Origin: an uncultured Gammaproteobacteria bacterium
GTDB lineage: Bacteria; Pseudomonadota; Gammaproteobacteria; JABCZS01
Reading direction: 5' to 3'
DNA: 64,000 nucleotides
Assembly (NCBI GenBank): GCA_963848305.1
Contig: CAWKDC010000001.1
Coordinates: 1,024,001-1,088,000 of the forward strand
In this document: one piece after another, positions 15,600-51,343 of the stretch
Layout: each line of letters opens with the position of its first letter
How positions within the stretch are numbered: the stretch's first letter is position 1
Notes under the pieces: model-generated
Seen by the model: the letters and a program-made list of their open reading frames with translations, nothing else
Told to the model about the DNA's origin: nothing
Database searches by the model: none
Translations under genes and position numbers: made by a program

Positions 15600-16169
15600 A
15601 TGGCAAAGAAATCAAAGCAACCTAAACCTGGCAAACCCAAAGCTGCTAAAGCTTCAAAAAGCCTGGGCGCAACCATCATTGCAACCTTAAAGTCCAGCAA
15701 AACCGAATTAACTCAACAAGTCAAAGGCGCTAAAAAAGCTTTAGCCGTTGCTAAAGTCGCGCACAAAAAAGAATCCGCAAAAGTAAAAGCTTCTCTCGCT
15801 CAAGCAAAAGCCACTGTTAAAGGCCCACGTGGCGCACAAGCCAAAGCAAAAACAGCATTGGCAAAAGCTCAAGCTGCTGCTGCAGCCGCGGCAAAAAAAT
15901 TAGCTGCCGCCACTGACACAGTGAATGCCTCTTTGTTGGCCTTGAAAGAAGTCACACTCCTGCAAAAAGCTGTTGCTCAATTTGAAAAATCTTGGAAGAA
16001 AGAAGCCAAGTCTGCAGCTGTTGCCAAAAAACGTGGTCGCAAAGCCAAGACAGTTGCTGTCACCGCAGCATCTACGAATGCAACCGGTAAAAAACGTGGA
16101 CGTAAGCCAAAGTCACAAGTCGTTGCAACTGAGATTGTTGAGACAGCGCCGGTTGTTGAAGTGGCCTGA
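15600..16169 (+). CDS. Lys/Ala-rich histone H1-like DNA-binding protein with two AT-hook-like motifs
   Basis: Extreme K/A content; KKRGRKAK and KKRGRKPK; RBS GGAGA. Confidence 0.7.
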   Translation: MAKKSKQPKPGKPKAAKASKSLGATIIATLKSSKTELTQQVKGAKKALAVAKVAHKKESAKVKASLAQAKATVKGPRGAQAKAKTALAKAQAAAAAAAKKLAAATDTVNASLLALKEVTLLQKAVAQFEKSWKKEAKSAAVAKKRGRKAKTVAVTAASTNATGKKRGRKPKSQVVATEIVETAPVVEVA

Positions 16170-16234
16170 TCCCGGATAAACGCTAACGCGTTTTCCGGGA
16201 TGACATGGGATAAACGCTAACGCGTTTTCCGGAT
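16168..16234. repeat. CGTC-type REP-like palindrome plus a truncated second copy
   Basis: ATCCCGGATAAACGC-TAAC-GCGTTTTCCGGGATGAC; same outer stem and GTCATCCCGGA end as the 25.7-26.4 kb arms. Confidence 0.8.
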
Positions 16235-20490: not shown

Positions 20491-23400
20491 ATGTCAAGTT
20501 CTCTCAACACATTAGAACAAATCATCGCTGCTTTGGCTGCCCTCGAGAAATATCGGCAGCGGCTAGCAGCCCCAGCTATTCCGCAGACTACTGCTGCTGG
20601 CAGGCTCACGTTGTACACACATCCTTCTGCCTGCCCCAGCCCAATCCTCGATAAATCTACGCCCCCCGACTCGACCGCTCCTAAACCAGTGGTGCCCGCA
20701 GATTCAGCGTTTCTGGAAGGCGTGTTGAGTAAATTTAAGAATACAAGAGGCAGTTTTGGAGCACTTTATTGGAACGAACAAAATGCCCAAAAAGATAATA
20801 AAGCTTATGAGTTACCTGAGCTAGATATTGATTATTTTCATAAAGATAATGACTCCCGAGAACCAATTCCCCCCAAAGTGCTGATCGATGTCGCCTATGC
20901 TGGCACCCACAAAGAATTCGTGGATATCAACATATTGGCACCCACAAGTGGAACTTTCCTACTACCTGATCACAATAGATGGTTTAACCTCTGCACAGAA
21001 CAAAAAAAATGGTTGACTAATTTTCTCGTTATAGCGAGCCCAGGCTCCACCCTTGACATTAAATCCAACGCAACAGATGGCACCATTGATTTTTGGGTGA
21101 TTCCACCCGGAGGATCTTCTAGACCACCCAATATAGATGAAGTTAAAGCGTTAACACCCGCCGTGGCTCGTTTAACACAGTGGGAATTGAATGGTCGTCC
21201 AGATAGTGGAAATCCAGAGATGCCCAATGCATGGATTTATACACACAAAAAAAGTGATGACCCCCTTGCCACTCTGACTCAGACTGAATTGACGAAAGTG
21301 ACCGAAACGCTAAGCGCTGCTGAAAACAATGTAGCCCCTATCCCATTCATAGTATCGACAAGCAGTGCTACACCTGCGTCTTCAACTTCCTCAAGCAGCA
21401 GTTTTGCATCGTCCGGATCGAGTGCTTCGCAACAACAGCAAAGGACTCCTGATCAGATACTTCTTGACAGCCTAGCAGTGACATCTTCCTCTGCTGATAC
21501 GAGCGCTTCATCCTTGATGTCAAGCAGTTCATCTGGGTCTGCGCCGACAAGCACCACAATGACGGGAACCAATACGGGAACGGATGAACAGCAGAAAAAA
21601 CGCCAACTATTGGTGGAGCTAGAAAAGCGGCAAGAAGAAGCTCGCCTTCAAAAGGTGCAGCAGCAACAAGAACAACTGCGTCAACAACAGACAAGTGCGA
21701 CAAATGCCGGGTCTTTAGCCTCATCTTCCTCAAGCAGCAGTTTTGCATCGTCCGCATCGTCGGGCTCGAGCAGTTCTTCCTCTGATCTGGGCACTTTATC
21801 AAGCTCGAGCGCTTCGCTACAAACTGACACAACAAGCCAGACTACCAATGACCCGCTCAATGAGCTGCGCGATACTCTACTGGCACTTCAAATAATATGC
21901 GCAGCACATGAAGAAGCCAACAAAGCAATAATACTTAGCATCCCGAAGCCCCCTGAGCCAAATGCAGAAACCGATGGAGAGGCCGAGGATGAACCTCAAG
22001 CAGACTATGCAAGAGAACAGGCAGCATATGAAGAAGCAAAGAAAAAATATCAACAAGAACTACCGTCGCTAGAAGCAAAAAAGCAAGCGGAAGGAGAAAG
22101 ATATACACAGCAAATTAAACGGATCAAAGATGGTGAAACTGTCATTCCACCAACGGCCCAAAAAAACAAACCCATTGCCCTGATCTGCGCAAGGATTATC
22201 CTGGATATCCACGCTCTCAATGCCTCTATTGACGATGAGATAGGTGCTGTCAATAAACTTTTACGCATTGCAAATATGCAAAGCCCAGGATTCACTGCAT
22301 CAAACCTTAACGACGACAACCAGGTATTCAAGTCCATGGTAGCCGTGAAAGCGGATTTAGAAAGAGTGATAGCAGTCACAACGATAAAAAAAGTTCCTGA
22401 TGAGTCTGACAAGGATGACGAAGTAAATGAGGAGGTCGCACCAGCTTTACAAAAGATTGTAGAGATACTCAAGTCAATCAAAAGCAATGCTAGTATTGCT
22501 ACTGGGGAACAGATCAATACCCTCAAACAGAATTACAATACCGTTAAAAAGCGTGCAGCCACCCCCCAGCTACTAGCACTCAACTGCCTTCTCATCTATT
22601 TACGTTTAATAGATATTTCAGGCTCTAATCAAAAGACACCAAAGAGATTTTTCAATCATGTCTATGAAGAGATGTGTCGCATTTCTGAAGATAGTGCGAC
22701 AACAAGCAGCGCCGACTCAAGAAATTCCATAGGTTCAAATCCGCTTTTGAGTTTCATTCTTAATGCAAGCCGTGTTAAATATAACATTTTAACAAGTGAA
22801 AGCGAGGCAGGCAAAGGCAAAAGTCCCGAACAAATAGCAAAAGAGAATAAGCGAATCCAGGCAGAATACGAAGCGGCAATAAACACATGTATGGATGAAT
22901 ACGAGGAAATCACGCCCACATCCACAGCAGAAATCGCCCCGTCCTGGACCACATGGGTTAGAAAAGGCGCTACAGCGGCAGGCACGGCAATTTTAGACGG
23001 TGTGAATGCTGTAGGAGCAGGAATTGCAACATTAGGCAAATCGTTCGTGAACCTGTTTGGTGCTAAAGAAAAAGCCAGCGGAACCAGCGCACCAACTGCA
23101 TCATCTTCTCCAACAACATCAAAAAAACCTGCAATGTCAGAAGGGATCGGTGAAACCCTCAGAAATGCTGGCACGACCATTGTTGTGGGATTTGAAGCTG
23201 TTGGTGCTGCGATTGGACGGTTTTGGAAGAAAATGTTCAAAACAAAGAAAGATAATAGAAGAGACACTCAGGCGATACTTGATGATTTCCGCAAAAAGGA
23301 TGAGGAAAGGCAGGAAGACGATGAGATGTTTGCAGAATGGGGCGCACAACTTCGTGACGAGCATGGCAATATCATATCGCCGAAAAGGGAACGAAACTCA

Positions 23401-25644
23401 AGCCGCTTATCCTTGGGCACTGCAATATCAAATGCAAGTAGCTCTTCCTCAAGCAGCGCAGCAACGGACACAAGCAGCAGCTCATCCAGTAGCTCCACAA
23501 CAGCATCATCGAGCAGCATGCCGCCTGCCACAACGACCACAGGAGCTGCATCCGGCGCCTCGTCGGGCAGCTTCGCAGCAGCTACAGAAGACTTGACCGC
23601 TGCAAGCAGCGTAGCCCCCCCTTCAAACCTAGCATTGAGACTTTGGGGCGCAGCAGCCAATGGGTTCATGGGCATGATGCGAGCAGCAAGTGCCTCGAAC
23701 AGCGTATCGCAAGCTGAGCTAGGCTCAGCCGCCGTCAATGGAGTCATTCAAGGTAAAAATAACATTGAACTTGACGAGATAACCAATGAAACCGCTCAGA
23801 AAATAATGACCCTCGGGGCTCGAAAAGATGAAGAAGAAGTCAAGAAAAATCCAAATGTAGCACAAGCAGCATCAAAATACACTGCGCTCAAATATCAGAT
23901 CCTTGCTTTTGAGGGTCAGGAACCCACCTCATTTAAACCTATCAAAGCTGAACTCGCAAGAATTGAGAATATGCCATTTGATGACACGACAAATACAATC
24001 ACCATCATTCCAATATTGGATGTGCAGGGCAGCTCCCTCGTCCAAGCATTTGCTGAAATGCAGGTTCAAAATAAAATCACTGAAATGATCAGTATTTTAA
24101 ATGCTATCCAATCTAGCAGTAGATTATCGACATTGGAGAGTGACAGACTCAAGATGTTGATTAAAACAAATATTCAAAGCCCGACACAAGGAAGTGTTGA
24201 AGATCTCTATCTCAATGTTATCATTCCTGTCGTCAGCACTTTATTACGGATTGCAGAAAACATTGCTGATGGCAATAGAATATCTATCGATTATTTAAAA
24301 CAAGTCAAAAATATTGTGCCAGGATTATTTCATGAAAACTTCAATGCTGCAGCACCTCAAATTATCAATGCTTATGAAAACAGCACGATTTCATCTTTAC
24401 CTGAACCAAAGAGTCTCCCTCTCACATCCGAAAACATTGAAACAGAGATCACAGTTACGCCAATACCAGCATCTCAACCCACTAAAAGAGTGGAACAGCA
24501 AACTCTACACGCCACTGGAAATTACGCCGACACTGTCAAAAAATATCTTTCTATGTTGCAAATGTGCGAAGAGATGTTGAACATTTTTGAAGAGATCGGA
24601 ACAAGAGAACCGGGTATCGCAGTCAAAACATCTAAAACCACGGAAAGGCTTTCTACACTATGTGGGGATTATACAACTAGTAACTTGCTCGCTAAACCAC
24701 GAGAAAAAGTTGTTTATCGTCAGGCAAACACTGCCGTGCAGATAAACAACCTGTATCAATCACCAAACAACCCTCCTAGTCACGAGCAGGCTAAAGCACT
24801 GCGAGATACCTATGTGGTATTGTGCAATTGCGTGAGGAAGCTTGAACAGGCGAACCCTCCTGTCAATTGCGCAGACTTGAAACTCGAGCTTCAAAAATTG
24901 GAATCTCTTTCGCCGATGACTAAAGACAATGTTCTCACTACCTTGCAGCGAGCTGTGAATAAACTCAAAATCATCAATAGAGAACATGCTGAACTCAGCA
25001 AGCTTGAACAAAATCTTGGTATTGCTGGGACAGCCGCACCTGTCAAAACTTCTTTCTTTCCCCTTTTCAACCTGCGCAAACCTAAGCCACAGGAATCTCC
25101 TGTAGTTATCCCACCCCTTACTTTAGAGATAAAGTTAAAAATCAACATCGCTTTTCTTAAGTGGAGAATGAATGATAAGAATGACACATTAAAGGCTGAA
25201 TATCTTGCTAAGTTGCAAGTACTACATCCTGAAATAAAGTCTATTAAATCACTGGGACTGCCGGACGCCTACAATAGTCAGCTCACCGGAGATGACAGAG
25301 CTCTGCTTCTTGACCTCGTTCTTGATGAAGTGCCTGAAAAAGTAAATTCAGAATATCAGCAGTATGTGGATATGCTGGGTAACGGGAAAGTTCTAAGCGA
25401 AGAACAGACATATCGAATGAAAATGATTTGTGTAAGGCTTGGGGAACCACCTGCCCTGAGCGCTGCAGCAGCATCTGATACCGCGAGCAGTAGTAGCTCC
25501 GCTTCGAGCAGTGCCCCACCCTCGCCAACGGCTTCGCCCCATTTACTTGCTGCCGAGGAATTGCACAGTACATTAACAAGTAGTGTGAAAGAAAAAAAAG
25601 AGGAAGAGGAAGTGGAAAAGGGAAACAAGAAGAAGAACGAATAA
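20491..25644 (+). CDS. 1717-aa low-complexity/coiled-coil protein, candidate translocated effector
   Basis: Uninterrupted ORF with RBS GAGG; poly-Ser/Gln tracts; Glu-rich C-terminus; no recognisable enzyme motif. Confidence 0.75.
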   Translation: MSSSLNTLEQIIAALAALEKYRQRLAAPAIPQTTAAGRLTLYTHPSACPSPILDKSTPPDSTAPKPVVPADSAFLEGVLSKFKNTRGSFGALYWNEQNAQKDNKAYELPELDIDYFHKDNDSREPIPPKVLIDVAYAGTHKEFVDINILAPTSGTFLLPDHNRWFNLCTEQKKWLTNFLVIASPGSTLDIKSNATDGTIDFWVIPPGGSSRPPNIDEVKALTPAVARLTQWELNGRPDSGNPEMPNAWIYTHKKSDDPLATLTQTELTKVTETLSAAENNVAPIPFIVSTSSATPASSTSSSSSFASSGSSASQQQQRTPDQILLDSLAVTSSSADTSASSLMSSSSSGSAPTSTTMTGTNTGTDEQQKKRQLLVELEKRQEEARLQKVQQQQEQLRQQQTSATNAGSLASSSSSSSFASSASSGSSSSSSDLGTLSSSSASLQTDTTSQTTNDPLNELRDTLLALQIICAAHEEANKAIILSIPKPPEPNAETDGEAEDEPQADYAREQAAYEEAKKKYQQELPSLEAKKQAEGERYTQQIKRIKDGETVIPPTAQKNKPIALICARIILDIHALNASIDDEIGAVNKLLRIANMQSPGFTASNLNDDNQVFKSMVAVKADLERVIAVTTIKKVPDESDKDDEVNEEVAPALQKIVEILKSIKSNASIATGEQINTLKQNYNTVKKRAATPQLLALNCLLIYLRLIDISGSNQKTPKRFFNHVYEEMCRISEDSATTSSADSRNSIGSNPLLSFILNASRVKYNILTSESEAGKGKSPEQIAKENKRIQAEYEAAINTCMDEYEEITPTSTAEIAPSWTTWVRKGATAAGTAILDGVNAVGAGIATLGKSFVNLFGAKEKASGTSAPTASSSPTTSKKPAMSEGIGETLRNAGTTIVVGFEAVGAAIGRFWKKMFKTKKDNRRDTQAILDDFRKKDEERQEDDEMFAEWGAQLRDEHGNIISPKRERNSSRLSLGTAISNASSSSSSSAATDTSSSSSSSSTTASSSSMPPATTTTGAASGASSGSFAAATEDLTAASSVAPPSNLALRLWGAAANGFMGMMRAASASNSVSQAELGSAAVNGVIQGKNNIELDEITNETAQKIMTLGARKDEEEVKKNPNVAQAASKYTALKYQILAFEGQEPTSFKPIKAELARIENMPFDDTTNTITIIPILDVQGSSLVQAFAEMQVQNKITEMISILNAIQSSSRLSTLESDRLKMLIKTNIQSPTQGSVEDLYLNVIIPVVSTLLRIAENIADGNRISIDYLKQVKNIVPGLFHENFNAAAPQIINAYENSTISSLPEPKSLPLTSENIETEITVTPIPASQPTKRVEQQTLHATGNYADTVKKYLSMLQMCEEMLNIFEEIGTREPGIAVKTSKTTERLSTLCGDYTTSNLLAKPREKVVYRQANTAVQINNLYQSPNNPPSHEQAKALRDTYVVLCNCVRKLEQANPPVNCADLKLELQKLESLSPMTKDNVLTTLQRAVNKLKIINREHAELSKLEQNLGIAGTAAPVKTSFFPLFNLRKPKPQESPVVIPPLTLEIKLKINIAFLKWRMNDKNDTLKAEYLAKLQVLHPEIKSIKSLGLPDAYNSQLTGDDRALLLDLVLDEVPEKVNSEYQQYVDMLGNGKVLSEEQTYRMKMICVRLGEPPALSAAAASDTASSSSSASSSAPPSPTASPHLLAAEELHSTLTSSVKEKKEEEEVEKGNKKKNE

Positions 25645-25673
25645 ACTTGTCCTAAACAACCCCCTAGAAAAAT

Positions 25674-25822
25674 CCCTGGCCTCGTCATCCCGGAAATTTT
25701 GCGTAGCAGACACGAAGCGCCCCCTGGCCTCGTCATCCCGGAAATTTTGCGTAGCAAGCGCGAAGCGTCCCCCTGACCTCGTCATCCCGGAAATTTTGCG
25801 TAGCAAAATTATCCGGGATCCA
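25674..25822 (+). repeat. Left arm: three tandem 48-49-bp CGTC-REP units, only the innermost a full palindrome
   Basis: CTCGTCATCCCGGAAATTTTGCGTAGCA in units starting 25674, 25722 and 25771. Confidence 0.95.
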
Positions 25823-25897
25823 CTCATACCTCATTGCAATTAATTTAAACATTAGATATCATTCACACACTATCAATCAAAATAAGAAGAGCAAAAA

Positions 25898-26209
25898 ATG
25901 AGAACATTCTATGTTTATATTTTAGCAAGTAGAAGAAATGGTACGTTGTATGTAGGAGTCACCGCGCATCTTAGTCATCGCATACAAGAACATAAACAAA
26001 AAATGTTGCCCGGATTTACTTCAAAATACGGAGTGAATCGCTTGGTGTATTACGAAAAGCATAAAATGATTATTGAGGCAATTAAGCGGGAAAAACAAAT
26101 CAAAAGGTGGCGCAGGGCATGGAAAATTGCATTAATAGAAAAAATAAATCCAGAGTGGGAAGATCTTTGTAGAGGTGATTATATTGCATATCCTCGCCCG
26201 AAAACATAG
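25898..26209 (+). CDS. Stand-alone GIY-YIG nuclease (YhbQ-like)
   Basis: FYVYIL...TLYVGVT...RIQEH...LVYYE...AIKREKQIKRWRRAWK. Confidence 0.93.
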   Translation: MRTFYVYILASRRNGTLYVGVTAHLSHRIQEHKQKMLPGFTSKYGVNRLVYYEKHKMIIEAIKREKQIKRWRRAWKIALIEKINPEWEDLCRGDYIAYPRPKT

Positions 26210-26235
26210 TTTCACTTGGTCTGAGATCGTTTCCC

Positions 26236-26377
26236 TGGATCCCGGATAATTTTGCTACGCAAAATTTCCGGGATGACGAGGCCAGGGGGACGCTTCGCGT
26301 CTGCTACGCAAAATTTCCGGGATGACGAGGCCAGGGGGGCGCTTCGCGTTTGCTACGCAACATTTCCGGGATGACGA
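26236..26377 (-). repeat. Right arm: inverted copy of the three-unit CGTC-REP array
   Basis: Near-identical reverse complement of 25682-25822. Confidence 0.95.
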
Positions 26378-26410
26378 AGTATGTGTGGGCAGCCCGCTGC
26401 GTGGGGGTTG

Positions 26411-27467
26411 TCACGCATGACGCTCATGCACCGCATCCACCAAGGCAGCCACGTGCTCAGGTGGAATACCGGGATGAATGCCGTGGCCGAGGTTAAACAC
26501 ATGGCCGGGATGTGAGCCGAAATCACGTAATATTTTCGCGACTTCAGATTGAATCACTGCAGGAGATGAGTACAGCACAGCGGGATCAAGATTACCTTGC
26601 AACGCCACTTTATCGCCCACACGTATGCGCGCATCGCCGATGTTGATCATCCAATCCAAGCCCAATGCATCACAACCAGTATCACTCATCCATTCTAACC
26701 ATTGACCGCCGCCTTTGGTGAATAAAATATTCGGGATGCGCGAGGCGCCACGCGATTTCGTTAAACATTCGACAATGCGTTGCATGGGTTCGAGTGAAAA
26801 GCGTTTGTATTGCTCAGGCGCTAAGATGCCGCCCCAAGTATCAAAAATCATCACCGCATCTACGCCAGCATCGATTTGTGCGTTTAAATATTCAGCCACG
26901 CTGTCGCTTAACACCGCCAATAATTGATCCATCAACGCAGGCGATTCGTACATCATTGCTTTGACTTTCGCAAATTCTCGCGTGCTGCTGCCTTCGACCA
27001 TGTAAGTGGCCAATGTCCAAGGACTGCCGGCAAAGCCAATCAAGGGGACGCGCTGATTCAATCCTTGCTTGATCAGACGAATGGTTTCATAAACATATGG
27101 CATGGTATCGAGCGGATCGGGGACAGCCAATCGTGCAATGTCAGCGGCTTGTTTGATGGGACGCGCAAATTGCTCAGTCGCCTTCCACGAAATGTAACCC
27201 TAACCCCATGGCGTTCGGGATGGTGAGAATATCAGAAAACAAAATCGCTGCGTCTAAATCGAAGCGGGCCAAGGGTTGCAACGTGACCTCACACGCCCAT
27301 TCGGGCGTTTGCATCAAGTTCATAAAGCTACCCGCCTGTGCCCGCAGCGCACGGTATTCGGGCAAATAACGTCCCGCCTGACGCATGATCCACACGGGTG
27401 TTTTATCGACGGGTTGACGCAGTAACGCTTTGATCAAACGATCATTGTGCAAAGGCCGATCACTCAT
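26411..27467 (-). CDS. hemE: Uroporphyrinogen decarboxylase (frameshift near 27173-27177)
   Basis: [32 protein letters not shown]; two ORFs join at a garbled GEGP motif. Confidence 0.95.
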
Positions 27468-28035
27468 CTGGCAAAGACTCCCCACCATCAAAACTAATAC
27501 CTGAATCATCTAATGTCATACCCAAATGATTGGCAATGGCCTCAACCACTTGTGCGGGCGTGCGCCTGTCAACATCGACCGTGAATTGCGCCAAGGTTTG
27601 ATACACCGGTTCGCGCTGGGCCAAGGTCGCTGCCAGCTGCTCTTCCAAGCTGCCTTGTCCTTTCAGCAACGGGCGTTCGGCATTGCCTGCCAGCCGTTGT
27701 GCCAAGGTTGCCGGTTGCGCACGTAAATAAACCACACGGTGTGTGGCAAACAGGGGGCGAATATTGATGTCCATCACTGCCCCGCCGCCTGTGGCTAACA
27801 CGCCATGAAAAGGGCGCAATAAACGCTGTGTGACAACGGCTTCTTTGTGGCGGAAATAGGGCTCACCTTTGGTTTGAATCAAATCGGCAATGGAGTGGTT
27901 CAATGCCTCGACAATCATGGCGTCGGTGTCGAAAAAGGGGATGTCCGCCCGTTCGGCCAATTGCTGACCCACCGTGGTTTTACCAGAGCCGGGCATGCCG
28001 ATCAGGACGATTTTTTGAGCTGTGGATTGTGTCAT
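27460..28035 (-). CDS. aroK: Shikimate kinase
   Basis: [21 protein letters not shown]. Confidence 0.93.
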
Positions 28036-28077
28036 AGGGGAAGTATATCTGTTTAGCCCTCAATCGTCCATATCAAA

Positions 28078-28172
28078 GATGACGCTGCTGATGTAGTGCC
28101 TATATGCAGCGCAATCTCACAAATATATTGACAGATTGCGCTACTTATAGAATACTTATTCGCAGCGCAATC
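28078..28172. promoter_or_regulatory. Four 11-bp boxes (GCAGCGCAATC) in alternating orientation at 28-bp period, overlapping a TTGACA -35
   Basis: Boxes start at 28078, 28106, 28134 and 28162; TTGACA at 28128-28133. Confidence 0.7.
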
Positions 28173-49399: not shown

Positions 49400-50966
49400 A
49401 AGGTGCGGCAGGCCCAGAGACCGCTACAATTGTGCCCCAGGTACATAAAGTGGCCGCAATACTTAATGCAGGCACAGCGATACTTGTGATGATCGCACCC
49501 ACATCTGATTTACCACATGCAGTGCATAAGACACCAATAAACTGCGCAGCTGATTGCGCAACCATAAGCGTTCTTCCTAGGGATAAATTTTCTTTTCTTA
49601 ATGATGACTGATCATCTGAATGATTGTATTCCGATAAGCTAGGTTTTTTTGATAAACCATCACCATCAATGACAATGTTTTCAGCGCCAGCAGAAGCAAC
49701 CCCATTAAATACCTTGCTCCATGTTTGAGGCGCGTCATCTTCCTTCATCATCGTTGAAATAGGTGAAAAGCTTTCTGAGGCATATTCGAGCTGTTGATCA
49801 AGCAGTGACACCTTGTTTGGTACTTCTTGAAATATTTTTCCTGTACCATAATTGAAGGCTGATAAGGGTTGTGACGTATCCCCGATACCCGTTTTGCTGA
49901 ATATGCTATTTAAATCATTCATGCTATCTGCGGCTGTTTGATAACACGCAGCGGCATTCAAGAATGGTTCTGCAAGTTCTGACAACTTAGCGTCATCAAA
50001 CCCCAAAGAACCCGAAGACAATCCGACGCAATGGGCAATGTTGACATGATCTTTGGCAAGGTCAGATAGTAAGCATGCGCCATGCTTTGTAAATTCTTGT
50101 AGATTATCGAGATTAATTTGTGATTTCGGCGCCTTCAACTCTGCCATACCTATACTCATCATATTCGATAAATGTGTCAGTGGCGATTTTCCATCAATGC
50201 CGATTTTCAACGCTTCATTTTTAAGTTGATCCCCCAGCGGCCCATTCACAGCATTCGCCATTGAAAATGCTTTATCGCGCATCATTTGCAAATAATCCAT
50301 TTTGTCACTGCTTAACAAATGAAGTGACCCAAGCACTTGAGGAAAAACCATTGGGTCTTCAAATTCATATGGTTGGGGATGTGGAATTTTATATTTTTTA
50401 TAAAATGATTCTGGGAAGTCACCTTTTTTCAAACAATCTTGAATTTCAGTGTAACGAACATGTATACCTGTATATTTTATATGATCTCTTTTTTCAGCAT
50501 GAGATGCTTTTCCCTGTAGAAAATTGTCATCCCACTGATCTTTTTTAATAAAACCGGCGACTTCTTTCATCGACACAGGGCTGTTAGCTGCCAAAGAGAT
50601 CGCTGCTGCCTGCCTTGCAGGCGACATTTTTGTAAATCGATCTCCGCCTAATTGTGTCGCTGCAATGATTGCCGCTTCATGAATAACATAATTTTCGAGA
50701 CGTTGTGCTTGAGCAGGCGTGAGTGTTTCACTCGATGTTTTGAGCGCTTGAACCTTATGAGGAATGCCACACGCTTTCAATACTCGAGCGGCATCCTTTC
50801 TATCTAAATTAAAACCGGTGGAAATGGTAGGATGTTTATCACCAGGATTATAAGCTTTTAACTTTCTTCCTTCATGTGCACGCAGAACAGATTTCACGAA
50901 ATCAAAATCTTTAATCAGTACAGGCCCTTGATATTGATAGTGTGTGTGAAATTTTCCATGCGGCAT
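49320..50966 (-). CDS. Protein with an N-terminal GH24/T4-lysozyme-like domain and C-terminal TM helices
   Basis: HEGRKLKAY...PTISTGFNL...RQAAAISLAAN; RBS GAGGAGGGG; hydrophobic helices at the end. Confidence 0.7.
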   Translation of the reverse strand: MPHGKFHTHYQYQGPVLIKDFDFVKSVLRAHEGRKLKAYNPGDKHPTISTGFNLDRKDAARVLKACGIPHKVQALKTSSETLTPAQAQRLENYVIHEAAIIAATQLGGDRFTKMSPARQAAAISLAANSPVSMKEVAGFIKKDQWDDNFLQGKASHAEKRDHIKYTGIHVRYTEIQDCLKKGDFPESFYKKYKIPHPQPYEFEDPMVFPQVLGSLHLLSSDKMDYLQMMRDKAFSMANAVNGPLGDQLKNEALKIGIDGKSPLTHLSNMMSIGMAELKAPKSQINLDNLQEFTKHGACLLSDLAKDHVNIAHCVGLSSGSLGFDDAKLSELAEPFLNAAACYQTAADSMNDLNSIFSKTGIGDTSQPLSAFNYGTGKIFQEVPNKVSLLDQQLEYASESFSPISTMMKEDDAPQTWSKVFNGVASAGAENIVIDGDGLSKKPSLSEYNHSDDQSSLRKENLSLGRTLMVAQSAAQFIGVLCTACGKSDVGAIITSIAVPALSIAATLCTWGTIVAVSGPAAPYVALAGAMATLVMGIAALCKGRQSYS

Positions 50967-51106: not shown

Positions 51107-51234
51107 CTACACAAGCGTGGCCATATTTTTATCACGCGGGCGAGAACGATATGCCATCGCGCCGCTACCGATCGTCAGCAGGGAATAGGTGAATGCCATG
51201 GTTAGTGTTTTACCGAGATCTTGATTCTCACCAT

Positions 51235-51343
51235 GATGGGTGTCACCCATCCAAGCGTTTTCCGGGATGACAGCTGGATGGGTGGAACCCATCCAAGCAT
51301 TTTCCCAGATCACAGCTGGATGGGTGGCGCCCATCCAAGCATT
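51235..51343. repeat. Three tandem 42-bp hairpin units directly after the rpoD stop
   Basis: GATGGG-N5-CCCATCCAAGC at 51235, 51277 and 51319; the first linker carries GCGTTTTCCGGGATGAC. Confidence 0.88.

What the first reader, a model, noticed from the sequence alone, without database searches (positions are those of the whole stretch)
25674..26377. GIY-YIG nuclease gene bracketed by mirror-image CGTC-REP arrays: candidate dedicated mobiliser of a REP family
Seen: a 103-aa stand-alone GIY-YIG gene sits between two ~145-bp inverted arms. Each arm has one complete hairpin (CGTCATCCCGGA-AATTTTGC-GTA-GCAAAATT-A-TCCGGGATCC) facing the gene and two truncated half-copies outward at 48-49-bp period. 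REPs with the same GTCATCCCGGA end but a different inner stem occur gene-free at 16168 and 51255. Established: GTAG-type REPs flank their HUH mobiliser RAYT in this same geometry; I know of no established mobiliser for CGTC-type REPs. Inference: the GIY-YIG protein is the cognate structure-specific nuclease of a REP-associated element, and the outward half-copies are amplification products.
Basis: partly seen in the sequence, partly recalled or inferred. Interest (0 to 1): 0.82.

Follow-up and report, generated by a model that had tools for sequence, protein, structure and literature searches.

The report
Ssn nuclease gene with hairpin repeats
A small DNA-cutting enzyme gene sits between mirror-image hairpin repeats; this pairing was described in 2025 as the Ssn single-strand nuclease family, so it is a new example of a known system with some unusual repeat details.

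Summary
A 103-aa single-domain GIY-YIG gene (25898-26209) lies between two inverted arms of about 145 bp. Each arm has one complete CGTC-tagged hairpin next to the gene and two truncated copies further out.

The same geometry recurs across phyla. A flanking inverted-repeat score of 30 or more was found at 42 of 73 homologues, against 4 of 291 neighbouring ORFs.

This is not new. Chenal et al. 2025 (PMC11893778; Results, Discussion and one Methods section read) described these proteins as Ssn nucleases. Ssn proteins bind such hairpins (NTS/SRM) only in single-stranded DNA and cut a few bases upstream. The scan had also found this system before on other DNA.

The window protein is 51-65% identical to 30 homologues that carry the exact Neisseria NTS consensus, and it keeps the catalytic residues.

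Three local features stand out:
- The hairpin has a long nested stem that the published search motif misses.
- Truncated 5' half-copies stack on the tag side, here and in other genomes.
- Gene-less hairpin doublets have the same layout as the cassette.

The 'mobiliser' idea remains an untested hypothesis that the 2025 authors also raised. Verdict: new member of a known kind, modest interest.

The parts
25674..25769 (+). Two truncated 5' half-copies of the repeat (5' flank CCCTGGCCT, CGTC tag, left arm, loop, then a 12-nt filler containing CGAAGCG), period 48 nt
   Evidence: (family D2)
25770..25823 (+). Complete SRM/NTS-like hairpin. The tag starts at 25780; the 16-bp stem has one bulged A; the loop is GTA; the tail TCCAC faces the gene
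   Evidence: (matches the published SRM pattern only when the loop gap is widened to 25)
25834..25862 (+). Weak sigma-70-like promoter match (TTGCAA-17-TATCAT, 9 of 12) in the 27% G+C spacer upstream of the gene. No better than chance (2 found, 1.5 expected)
25898..26209 (+). ssn-type gene: a 103-aa single-domain GIY-YIG nuclease, 36.5% G+C against 46.5% for the genome
26235..26278 (-). Complete SRM/NTS-like hairpin, inverted copy, with its tail facing the gene
26279..26380 (-). 5' flank plus two truncated 5' half-copies, period 49 nt. The outermost has one change in the inner stem (AATGTT)
   Evidence: (family D1)
16168..16204 (-). Gene-free complete hairpin of the same family (same tag, outer stem and tail; inner stem AAACGC-GTTA-GCGTTT), preceded by a degenerate tandem copy
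51233..51300 (-). Two tag-plus-left-arm copies with no right arm, alternating with an unrelated palindrome

Best explanation
The locus is an Ssn cassette. It encodes a single-domain GIY-YIG nuclease of the Ssn family (cd10448 type; SsnA of Neisseria meningitidis is the prototype). The gene is flanked by inverted copies of its own recognition hairpin, an SRM/NTS element, which is the CGTC-tagged REP of Di Nocera 2013. By homology (inferred, not shown for this protein), the enzyme binds the folded hairpin only when the DNA is single-stranded. It reads the outer stem, the 5' GTCA tag and the C after the stem, and it cuts the tagged strand a few nucleotides 5' of the tag. With tags outward, each strand of the cassette would be cut just outside the complete hairpin on its 5' side. 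The roughly 14-20 other hairpins in this genome share the tag, outer stem (TCCCGGA/TCCGGGA) and tail but differ in their inner stem. They would be substrates of the same enzyme, because the paper found loop identity not essential for cleavage and that extensions at the loop position, including complementary ones that lengthen the stem, still allow it. The likely cellular effect is cutting of hairpin-bearing ssDNA, whether incoming transforming DNA or replication and repair intermediates.
For: Protein: Pfam GIY-YIG at E 7.5e-15 and 103 aa with no other domain. Y7, Y18, R28, H32, E65 and N84 are invariant in 9 sequences. They lie one position from the Y6, Y17 and E64 whose mutation abolished cleavage in SsnA (PMC11893778 Fig. 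3 legend). Homology: 341 and 578 relatives turned up in two scans of genome contigs, and 160 loci were kept. Of 151 scorable loci, 30 carry the exact N. meningitidis NTS consensus within 300 bp (6 on both sides), and their proteins are 51-65% identical to the window protein. Association: flanking inverted-repeat score of 30 or more in 42 of 73 homologues against 4 of 291 neighbouring ORFs; score of 50 or more in 24 of 73 against 0 of 291. 51 of 73 lie above the 95th percentile of 1080 random placements. The published SRM pattern is found within 300 bp of 84 of 151 loci and on both sides of 45. Of those 45, 27 have tags outward as here, 2 have tags inward and 16 are other arrangements. Co-variation: Mantel r 0.434 between protein and hairpin distances over 99 loci, with 0 of 999 permutations as high. 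Co-occurrence within this bacterial family: the tag-stem-tail pattern hits 14, 35 and 16 times in the three genomes that have the gene (G000, G006, G007). It hits 0, 0, 0, 0, 0, 6, 5, 1 and 2 times in the nine where the gene was not found, and both same-genus genomes score 0. Hairpin stability as ssDNA. Biochemistry of the family: PMC11893778, sections read.
Against: No direct comparison with the SsnA sequence itself was possible, and no CDD assignment is available here. Membership therefore rests on homologues flanked by canonical NTS. That pattern is not enriched in this genome (7 observed against 4.6 +/- 1.6 in 10 shuffles). The copy number is low (about 14-20 complete hairpins), far from the hundreds seen in Neisseria. 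Activity on the nested hairpin is extrapolated from stem-extension experiments on a different enzyme. Four genomes of the sister genus have a few hairpins but no detected gene; they are 72-89% complete.
Confidence: 0.82

Rival explanations
1. Self-propagating cassette (the first reader's 'mobiliser', and the IS-like hypothesis in the Discussion of PMC11893778). Hairpin-ssn-hairpin is or was an autonomous element. The gene-less hairpin doublets are its non-autonomous miniatures, analogous to REPINs with RAYT. The nuclease drives their spread, and the half-copy arrays are by-products of its nicking. This is compatible with the best explanation for the biochemistry and differs only on the biological role.
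For: The cassette is absent from both same-genus genomes, which also have 0 hairpins. The gene is compositionally foreign (36.5% against 46.5% G+C). Its best relatives (up to 69% identity) are in unrelated lineages, while same-family genomes give 50-62%. G006 and G007 hold several diverged copies and fragments. A 125-nt doublet with the cassette's layout (halves outward, tags outward, a 4-nt spacer in place of the gene) occurs at two loci, alignment score 209. Lone 5' halves lie upstream of 27 of 302 complete copies, against 9 downstream and 5 and 6 for 3' halves. Hairpin counts are high only in genomes that have the gene.
Against: GIY-YIG nucleases only cleave; no joining chemistry is known. 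No precise empty site was found, because synteny ends at the hemE stop codon in both congeners. Co-occurrence and co-variation can reflect shared descent or joint transfer. The half-copies show no outward decay gradient (3 more, 3 less and 8 equal of 14 arrays). The only demonstrated role of the family is restriction of transforming ssDNA.
Confidence: 0.3
2. Homing-type selfish gene. The nuclease cuts hairpin sites that lack the gene, and recombinational repair from a gene-bearing copy, using the flanking hairpins as homology, copies the gene into them.
For: The gene lies exactly between two hairpins in the arrangement of the common gene-less doublets. Its distribution is patchy.
Against: There is only one copy in this genome despite several doublets. 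The family does not cut dsDNA (PMC11893778). There is no DNA-binding domain like those of I-TevI-type enzymes, and TIGR01453 scores 19.7 bits against a cut-off of 56.
Confidence: 0.07
3. Passive association. REPs accumulate around a dispensable gene or serve only as terminators or insulators, with no functional link to the protein.
For: The same arrays occur without a gene elsewhere in the genome. No terminator-like T tract was found, so this reading has little positive support.
Against: Enrichment is 42 of 73 against 4 of 291. Orientation is consistent (27 of 45 with tags outward). Protein and hairpin co-vary. Binding and cleavage have been published.
Confidence: 0.03

Closest known systems
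Ssn nucleases with NTS/SRM hairpins (SsnA of Neisseria meningitidis; Chenal et al. 2025, Nat Commun 16:2388, PMC11893778)
   Same: Single-domain GIY-YIG protein of about 95-100 aa with conserved catalytic Tyr, Tyr and Glu. The gene is flanked on both sides by oriented hairpins of the form (C)GTCA tag, stem, loop, stem, TCC(A/G) tail. Further copies of the hairpin lie in intergenic DNA. The protein is 51-65% identical to homologues flanked by the canonical NTS.
   Different: The hairpin has a nested 16-bp stem, with 18 nt between the outer-stem halves, so the published SRM search pattern does not match it. The copy number is low. Truncated 5' half-copies are stacked in mirror symmetry on both sides. 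No biochemistry or transformation data exist for this organism.
CGTC-tagged REPs (Di Nocera, De Gregorio and Rocco 2013, BMC Genomics 14:522, PMC3733652)
   Same: Short extragenic palindromes with CGTC at one end, occurring singly, as inverted dimers and in clusters. The arms found next to Bradyrhizobium-type homologues have the same long-stem form.
   Different: [quoted passage not shown] Here, and in the 2025 paper, they flank a GIY-YIG gene. This genome has tens of copies, not hundreds.
REPtrons: RAYT (HUH/Y1, IS200/IS605-related) genes flanked by GTAG REPs, with REPIN doublets
   Same: A single-copy gene bracketed by inverted copies of the genome's own palindromic repeat; gene-less doublets elsewhere; recognition of ssDNA hairpins.
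   Different: Different enzyme superfamily (GIY-YIG, not HUH), different tag (CGTC, not GTAG), and no covalent-intermediate chemistry that could rejoin DNA.
UPF0213 / YhbQ-type small GIY-YIG proteins (PDB 1zg2, BH0048)
   Same: About 100 aa, GIY-YIG only.
   Different: Only a marginal sequence match (E 0.0086), so this is a separate small-GIY-YIG family.

Membership tests
Ssn nuclease family (Chenal et al. 2025) | Single-domain GIY-YIG protein of about 94-100 aa | tested here: met
   103-aa ORF. PF01541 covers residues 4-76 at E 7.5e-15, and there is no other Pfam or NCBIfam family above cut-off.
Ssn nuclease family (Chenal et al. 2025) | Catalytic residues equivalent to SsnA Y6, Y17 and E64 | tested here: met
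   Y7, Y18 and E65 (also R28, H32, N84) are invariant in 9 sequences. Equivalence to SsnA numbering is inferred from the one-residue offset, not from a direct alignment.
Ssn nuclease family (Chenal et al. 2025) | Sequence homology to N. meningitidis SsnA (the paper's criterion: E < 1e-10) or CDD cd10448 assignment | not testable with these tools
Indirect evidence: 51-65% identity to 30 homologues whose flanks carry the exact NTS consensus.
Ssn nuclease family (Chenal et al. 2025) | SRM hairpins flanking the gene, as matched by the published search pattern | tested here: not met
   0 matches of the published pattern in the window. With the loop gap widened from 5 to 25, both complete hairpins match (25780-25823 +, 26235-26278 -). 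All fixed parts of the pattern fit; only the spacing fails.
Ssn nuclease family (Chenal et al. 2025) | ssDNA-only, strand-specific cleavage a few nt upstream of the hairpin | not testable with these tools
   Needs a biochemical assay.
CGTC-tagged REP (Di Nocera 2013) | Palindromic stem-loop with CGTC at one end, extragenic | tested here: met
CGTC-tagged REP (Di Nocera 2013) | High copy number in the genome | tested here: not met
   About 14 to 20 complete copies in 1.89 Mb.
REPtron / RAYT | HUH-Y1 transposase flanked by GTAG REPs | tested here: not met
   The protein is GIY-YIG and the tag is CGTC.
GIY-YIG homing endonuclease (I-TevI type) | Nuclease domain plus a separate DNA-binding domain; an intron or intein context | tested here: not met
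   TIGR01453 scores 19.7 bits against a cut-off of 56. The protein is 103 aa and the gene is free-standing and intergenic.

The most novel reading that the evidence does not exclude
The cassette and the gene-less doublets form a nuclease-only replicator system, the CGTC counterpart of RAYT and REPINs. The tandem 5' half-copies would be footprints of the enzyme's action: a nick just 5' of the tag, strand-displacement synthesis that stops at the hairpin, and religation of the displaced flap, which duplicates flank, tag and left arm. That would make Ssn nicking a direct source of repeat growth and local genome instability rather than only a filter on transforming DNA.
Probability: 0.22. Interest if true: 0.65.

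Novelty: new member of a known kind. Interest (0 to 1): 0.3.

Why it matters
The finding adds a member of the Ssn family from a small (1.9 Mb) genome with a hairpin type that the published search motif cannot see. Genome surveys based on that motif therefore undercount Ssn-related repeats, especially the long-stem forms common next to alphaproteobacterial-type homologues. A distinct enzyme-hairpin pair could be useful as an ssDNA tool if its specificity differs. The asymmetric 5' half-copy arrays and the doublets that mirror the cassette give a concrete, testable handle on an open question: whether Ssn nucleases only restrict ssDNA or also generate and spread their repeats.

Tried and rejected
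Empty site: the DNA from 24400 to 28100 was searched in both same-genus genomes. Similarity starts at the hemE stop codon, and the neighbouring genes differ (an unrelated 177-aa ORF in G001, a HicA/HicB-like pair in G002). No precise empty site could be defined.

Neisseria homologue: a second scan seeded with the Undibacterium protein gave no Neisseria record among its best 80, so no direct comparison with SsnA was made.

Outward decay of half-copies: not supported.

End point of half-copies relative to the hairpin apex: median -1 nt, but a wide spread (19 of 39 within 5 nt). The measure is crude because some pattern hits spanned a half plus a full copy. Inconclusive.

Public reads: 13 runs listed, none on record as RNA ('no RNA holder listed'). 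The four best were laid (word shares 0.20-0.42, Logan contigs of wetland and soil metagenomes). They gave only short contigs that break at the repeat arms, and no joints, variants or bridging pieces. This says nothing about excision or expression.

Promoter and terminator scan: 2 promoter-like sites against 1.5 expected, and 0 terminators. Uninformative.

Literature: 0 papers hold both 'GIY-YIG' and 'repetitive extragenic palindromic'. Searches did not surface the Ssn paper. It was found through the scan's earlier notes and then confirmed by reading it. Searches for the terms 'tandem', 'truncated', 'partial' and 'array' in PMC11893778, and 'truncated', 'tandem', 'half', 'incomplete', 'degenerat' and 'array' in PMC3733652, found no description of half-copy arrays. 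The supplements of both papers were not opened and might bear on this.

No structure prediction, complex prediction or large protein-database search was run.

Full report
**What is there**

The window is G000:C1:1024001-1088000 of a 1.89-Mb, 46.5% G+C genome in 4 contigs. Between the end of a 1717-aa Ser-rich ORF (20491-25644) and the 3' end of hemE lies a 103-aa ORF (25898-26209, + strand). It matches Pfam GIY-YIG (PF01541, E 7.5e-15, residues 4-76) and nothing else above cut-off.

The ORF is bracketed by two inverted arms. The left arm holds units 25674-25721, 25722-25769 and 25771-25818 (spacing 48 and 49). The right arm holds 26253-26301, 26302-26350 and 26351-26399 (spacing 49). The longest inverted pair is 103 nt at 97% complementarity, 413 nt apart.

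Only the unit nearest the gene on each side is a full hairpin. It consists of a CGTC tag, a 16-bp stem with one bulged A, a GTA loop and a TCC tail. As ssDNA it folds at -14.6 kcal/mol (left) and -19.9 kcal/mol (right), z about -6.5 to -6.8, and 0 of 200 shuffles fold as well. The outer units keep the 5' flank, the tag, the left arm and the loop, but not the right arm.

**Is the association more than chance?**

Relatives of the protein in this bacterial family and class are also flanked by inverted CGTC-type palindromes, each of a different sequence.

I fetched 80 loci with 5-kb flanks from genome contigs of many phyla. For each I scored a local alignment of the 300 bp upstream against the reverse complement of the 300 bp downstream.
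- Of 73 scorable genes, 51 exceed the 95th percentile and 43 the 99th percentile of 1080 random placements in the same loci.
- Against real neighbouring ORFs of 100 aa or more, a score of 30 or more is reached by 42 of 73 homologues and 4 of 291 controls. A score of 50 or more is reached by 24 of 73 and 0 of 291.
- The arms are nearly always (C/T)GTCA(T/C), stem, loop, stem, (A)TCCAG palindromes that differ between genomes.

**It is a known system**

My first literature searches did not find a link. Di Nocera et al. [quoted passage not shown]

Earlier notes of this scan pointed to Chenal et al. 2025 (PMC11893778). I read its Results parts 1-3, its Discussion and Methods section 17. The paper reports the following.
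- It defines the Ssn family as single-domain GIY-YIG proteins of CDD family cd10448.
- SsnA of N. meningitidis binds the NTS hairpin only as ssDNA and cuts a few nucleotides upstream, on one strand only.
- Y6A, Y17A and E64A abolish cutting.
- Loop identity is not essential for cleavage.
- Added stem extensions, and even two half-sites supplied in trans, still allow cleavage.
- SsnA lowers transformation by NTS-bearing DNA.
- 71% of homologues have an SRM nearby and 42% have one on both sides.
- The NTS-ssnA-NTS layout resembles an insertion sequence, which the authors raise as a domestication hypothesis.

**Membership**

- The window protein keeps Y7, Y18, R28, H32, E65 and N84, which are invariant in 9 sequences.
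- Among 151 scorable homologue loci, 30 carry the exact Neisseria NTS consensus within 300 bp, 6 of them on both sides. Their proteins are 51-65% identical to the window protein.
- In the same 151 loci the published SRM pattern occurs near 84 and on both sides of 45. Of those 45, 27 have tags outward as here, 2 have tags inward and 16 are other arrangements. These figures are of the same order as the paper's.
- Protein distance and flanking-hairpin distance correlate: Mantel r 0.434 over 99 loci, with 0 of 999 permutations as high. The caveat is that shared descent, and my use of two seed proteins, both inflate such a test.
- I could not align the protein with SsnA itself or assign a CDD family. 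The only solved relative is the UPF0213 protein 1zg2, at a marginal E of 0.0086.

**What is particular here**

1. The hairpin is a nested, long-stem form. The tag, outer stem and tail fit every fixed position of the published SRM pattern, but 18 nt separate the outer-stem halves where the pattern allows 5. The pattern therefore finds nothing in the window. With the gap widened to 25 it finds both complete hairpins plus one probable chance hit at 50525. Genome-wide, the published pattern is not enriched (7 against 4.6 +/- 1.6). The widened one is modestly enriched (36 against 22.4 +/- 6.6, 10 shuffles).

2. The family is low-copy. There are about 14-20 complete hairpins in three main subfamilies, which share GTCATCCCGG...CCGGGATCC but differ in the inner stem.

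3. Within the bacterial family, a tag-stem-tail pattern hits 14, 35 and 16 times in the three genomes with the gene. It hits 0, 0, 0, 0, 0, 6, 5, 1 and 2 times in the nine where the gene was not found. Both congeners score 0. The four with a few hits are 72-89% complete.

4. Truncated 5' half-copies stacked on the tag side of a complete hairpin occur at five further gene-free sites in this genome. They also occur in other taxa. Among 302 complete copies in the 160 loci, a lone 5' half lies within 85 nt upstream of 27. It lies downstream of 9, and 3' halves occur at 5 and 6. I found no outward decay gradient, and the end points relative to the hairpin apex are only loosely clustered. By term search, neither paper mentions such arrays; their supplements were not read.

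5. A 125-nt gene-less doublet (C1:676151-676273 and, inverted, C1:1408730-1408852) has the cassette's layout, with a 4-nt spacer in place of the gene.

**How it most likely works**

Shown for four relatives and inferred here: the protein binds the folded hairpin in ssDNA and nicks the tagged strand just 5' of the tag. With tags outward, each strand of the cassette would be cut on its outer 5' side.

ComEC and DprA are encoded in this genome, so uptake of ssDNA is genomically possible and the transformation-filter role is not excluded.

Several observations fit acquisition by transfer and some capacity to spread. The gene is 36.5% G+C. It is absent from congeners. Its closest relatives are in distant lineages. 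None of this shows that the nuclease moves the repeats. I found no empty site and no structural variants in public contigs.

**Verdict**

This is a new member of a known kind, already seen several times by this scan on other DNA. The points worth a follow-up are the long-stem hairpin type that the published motif misses and the asymmetric 5' half-copy arrays.

Noticed in passing
window 26411-27509 (- strand): hemE is split by a frameshift into 111-aa (27509-27174) and 239-aa (27130-26411) pieces. It is an intact 347 aa in both same-genus genomes. This is either a pseudogene or an assembly error.
   Followed up: partly
G000:C1:630942-631208 and C1:958396-958662 (L002/L003 1492-1758, - strand): An 88-aa GIY-YIG ORF (PF01541 E 2.7e-10, 34% identical to the ssn product) lies inside the 23S rRNA gene of both rRNA operons. 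The Rfam LSU match spans 2316 nt for 2047 model positions, and the excess is about the size of the ORF. It looks like an intervening sequence or intron-type insertion carrying its own nuclease ORF.
   Followed up: partly
L023 900-1500 (G001) and L024 3090-3860 (G002): The region downstream of hemE is variable in the genus. G001 has an unrelated 177-aa ORF and a 41-bp spacer. G002 has a small two-gene pair that looks like HicA/HicB (names recalled from the translated sequence, not tested).
   Followed up: no
window 20491-25644 (+): A 1717-aa ORF with long Ser/Thr/Ala-rich low-complexity tracts ends 30 bp before the left repeat arm. No function was examined.
   Followed up: no
window 51233-51300 (-): Two tag-plus-left-arm copies of the repeat alternate with an unrelated palindrome (GGATGGGT..CACCCATCC), with no right arm.
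   Followed up: no
L119 (about 1380-1480, - strand), L143 and L149 (about 1830-1970, + strand): Striking tandem arrays of 18-22-nt units (tag, left arm and loop) precede a single complete hairpin next to ssn homologues of Pseudomaricurvus and Endozoicomonas.
   Followed up: partly
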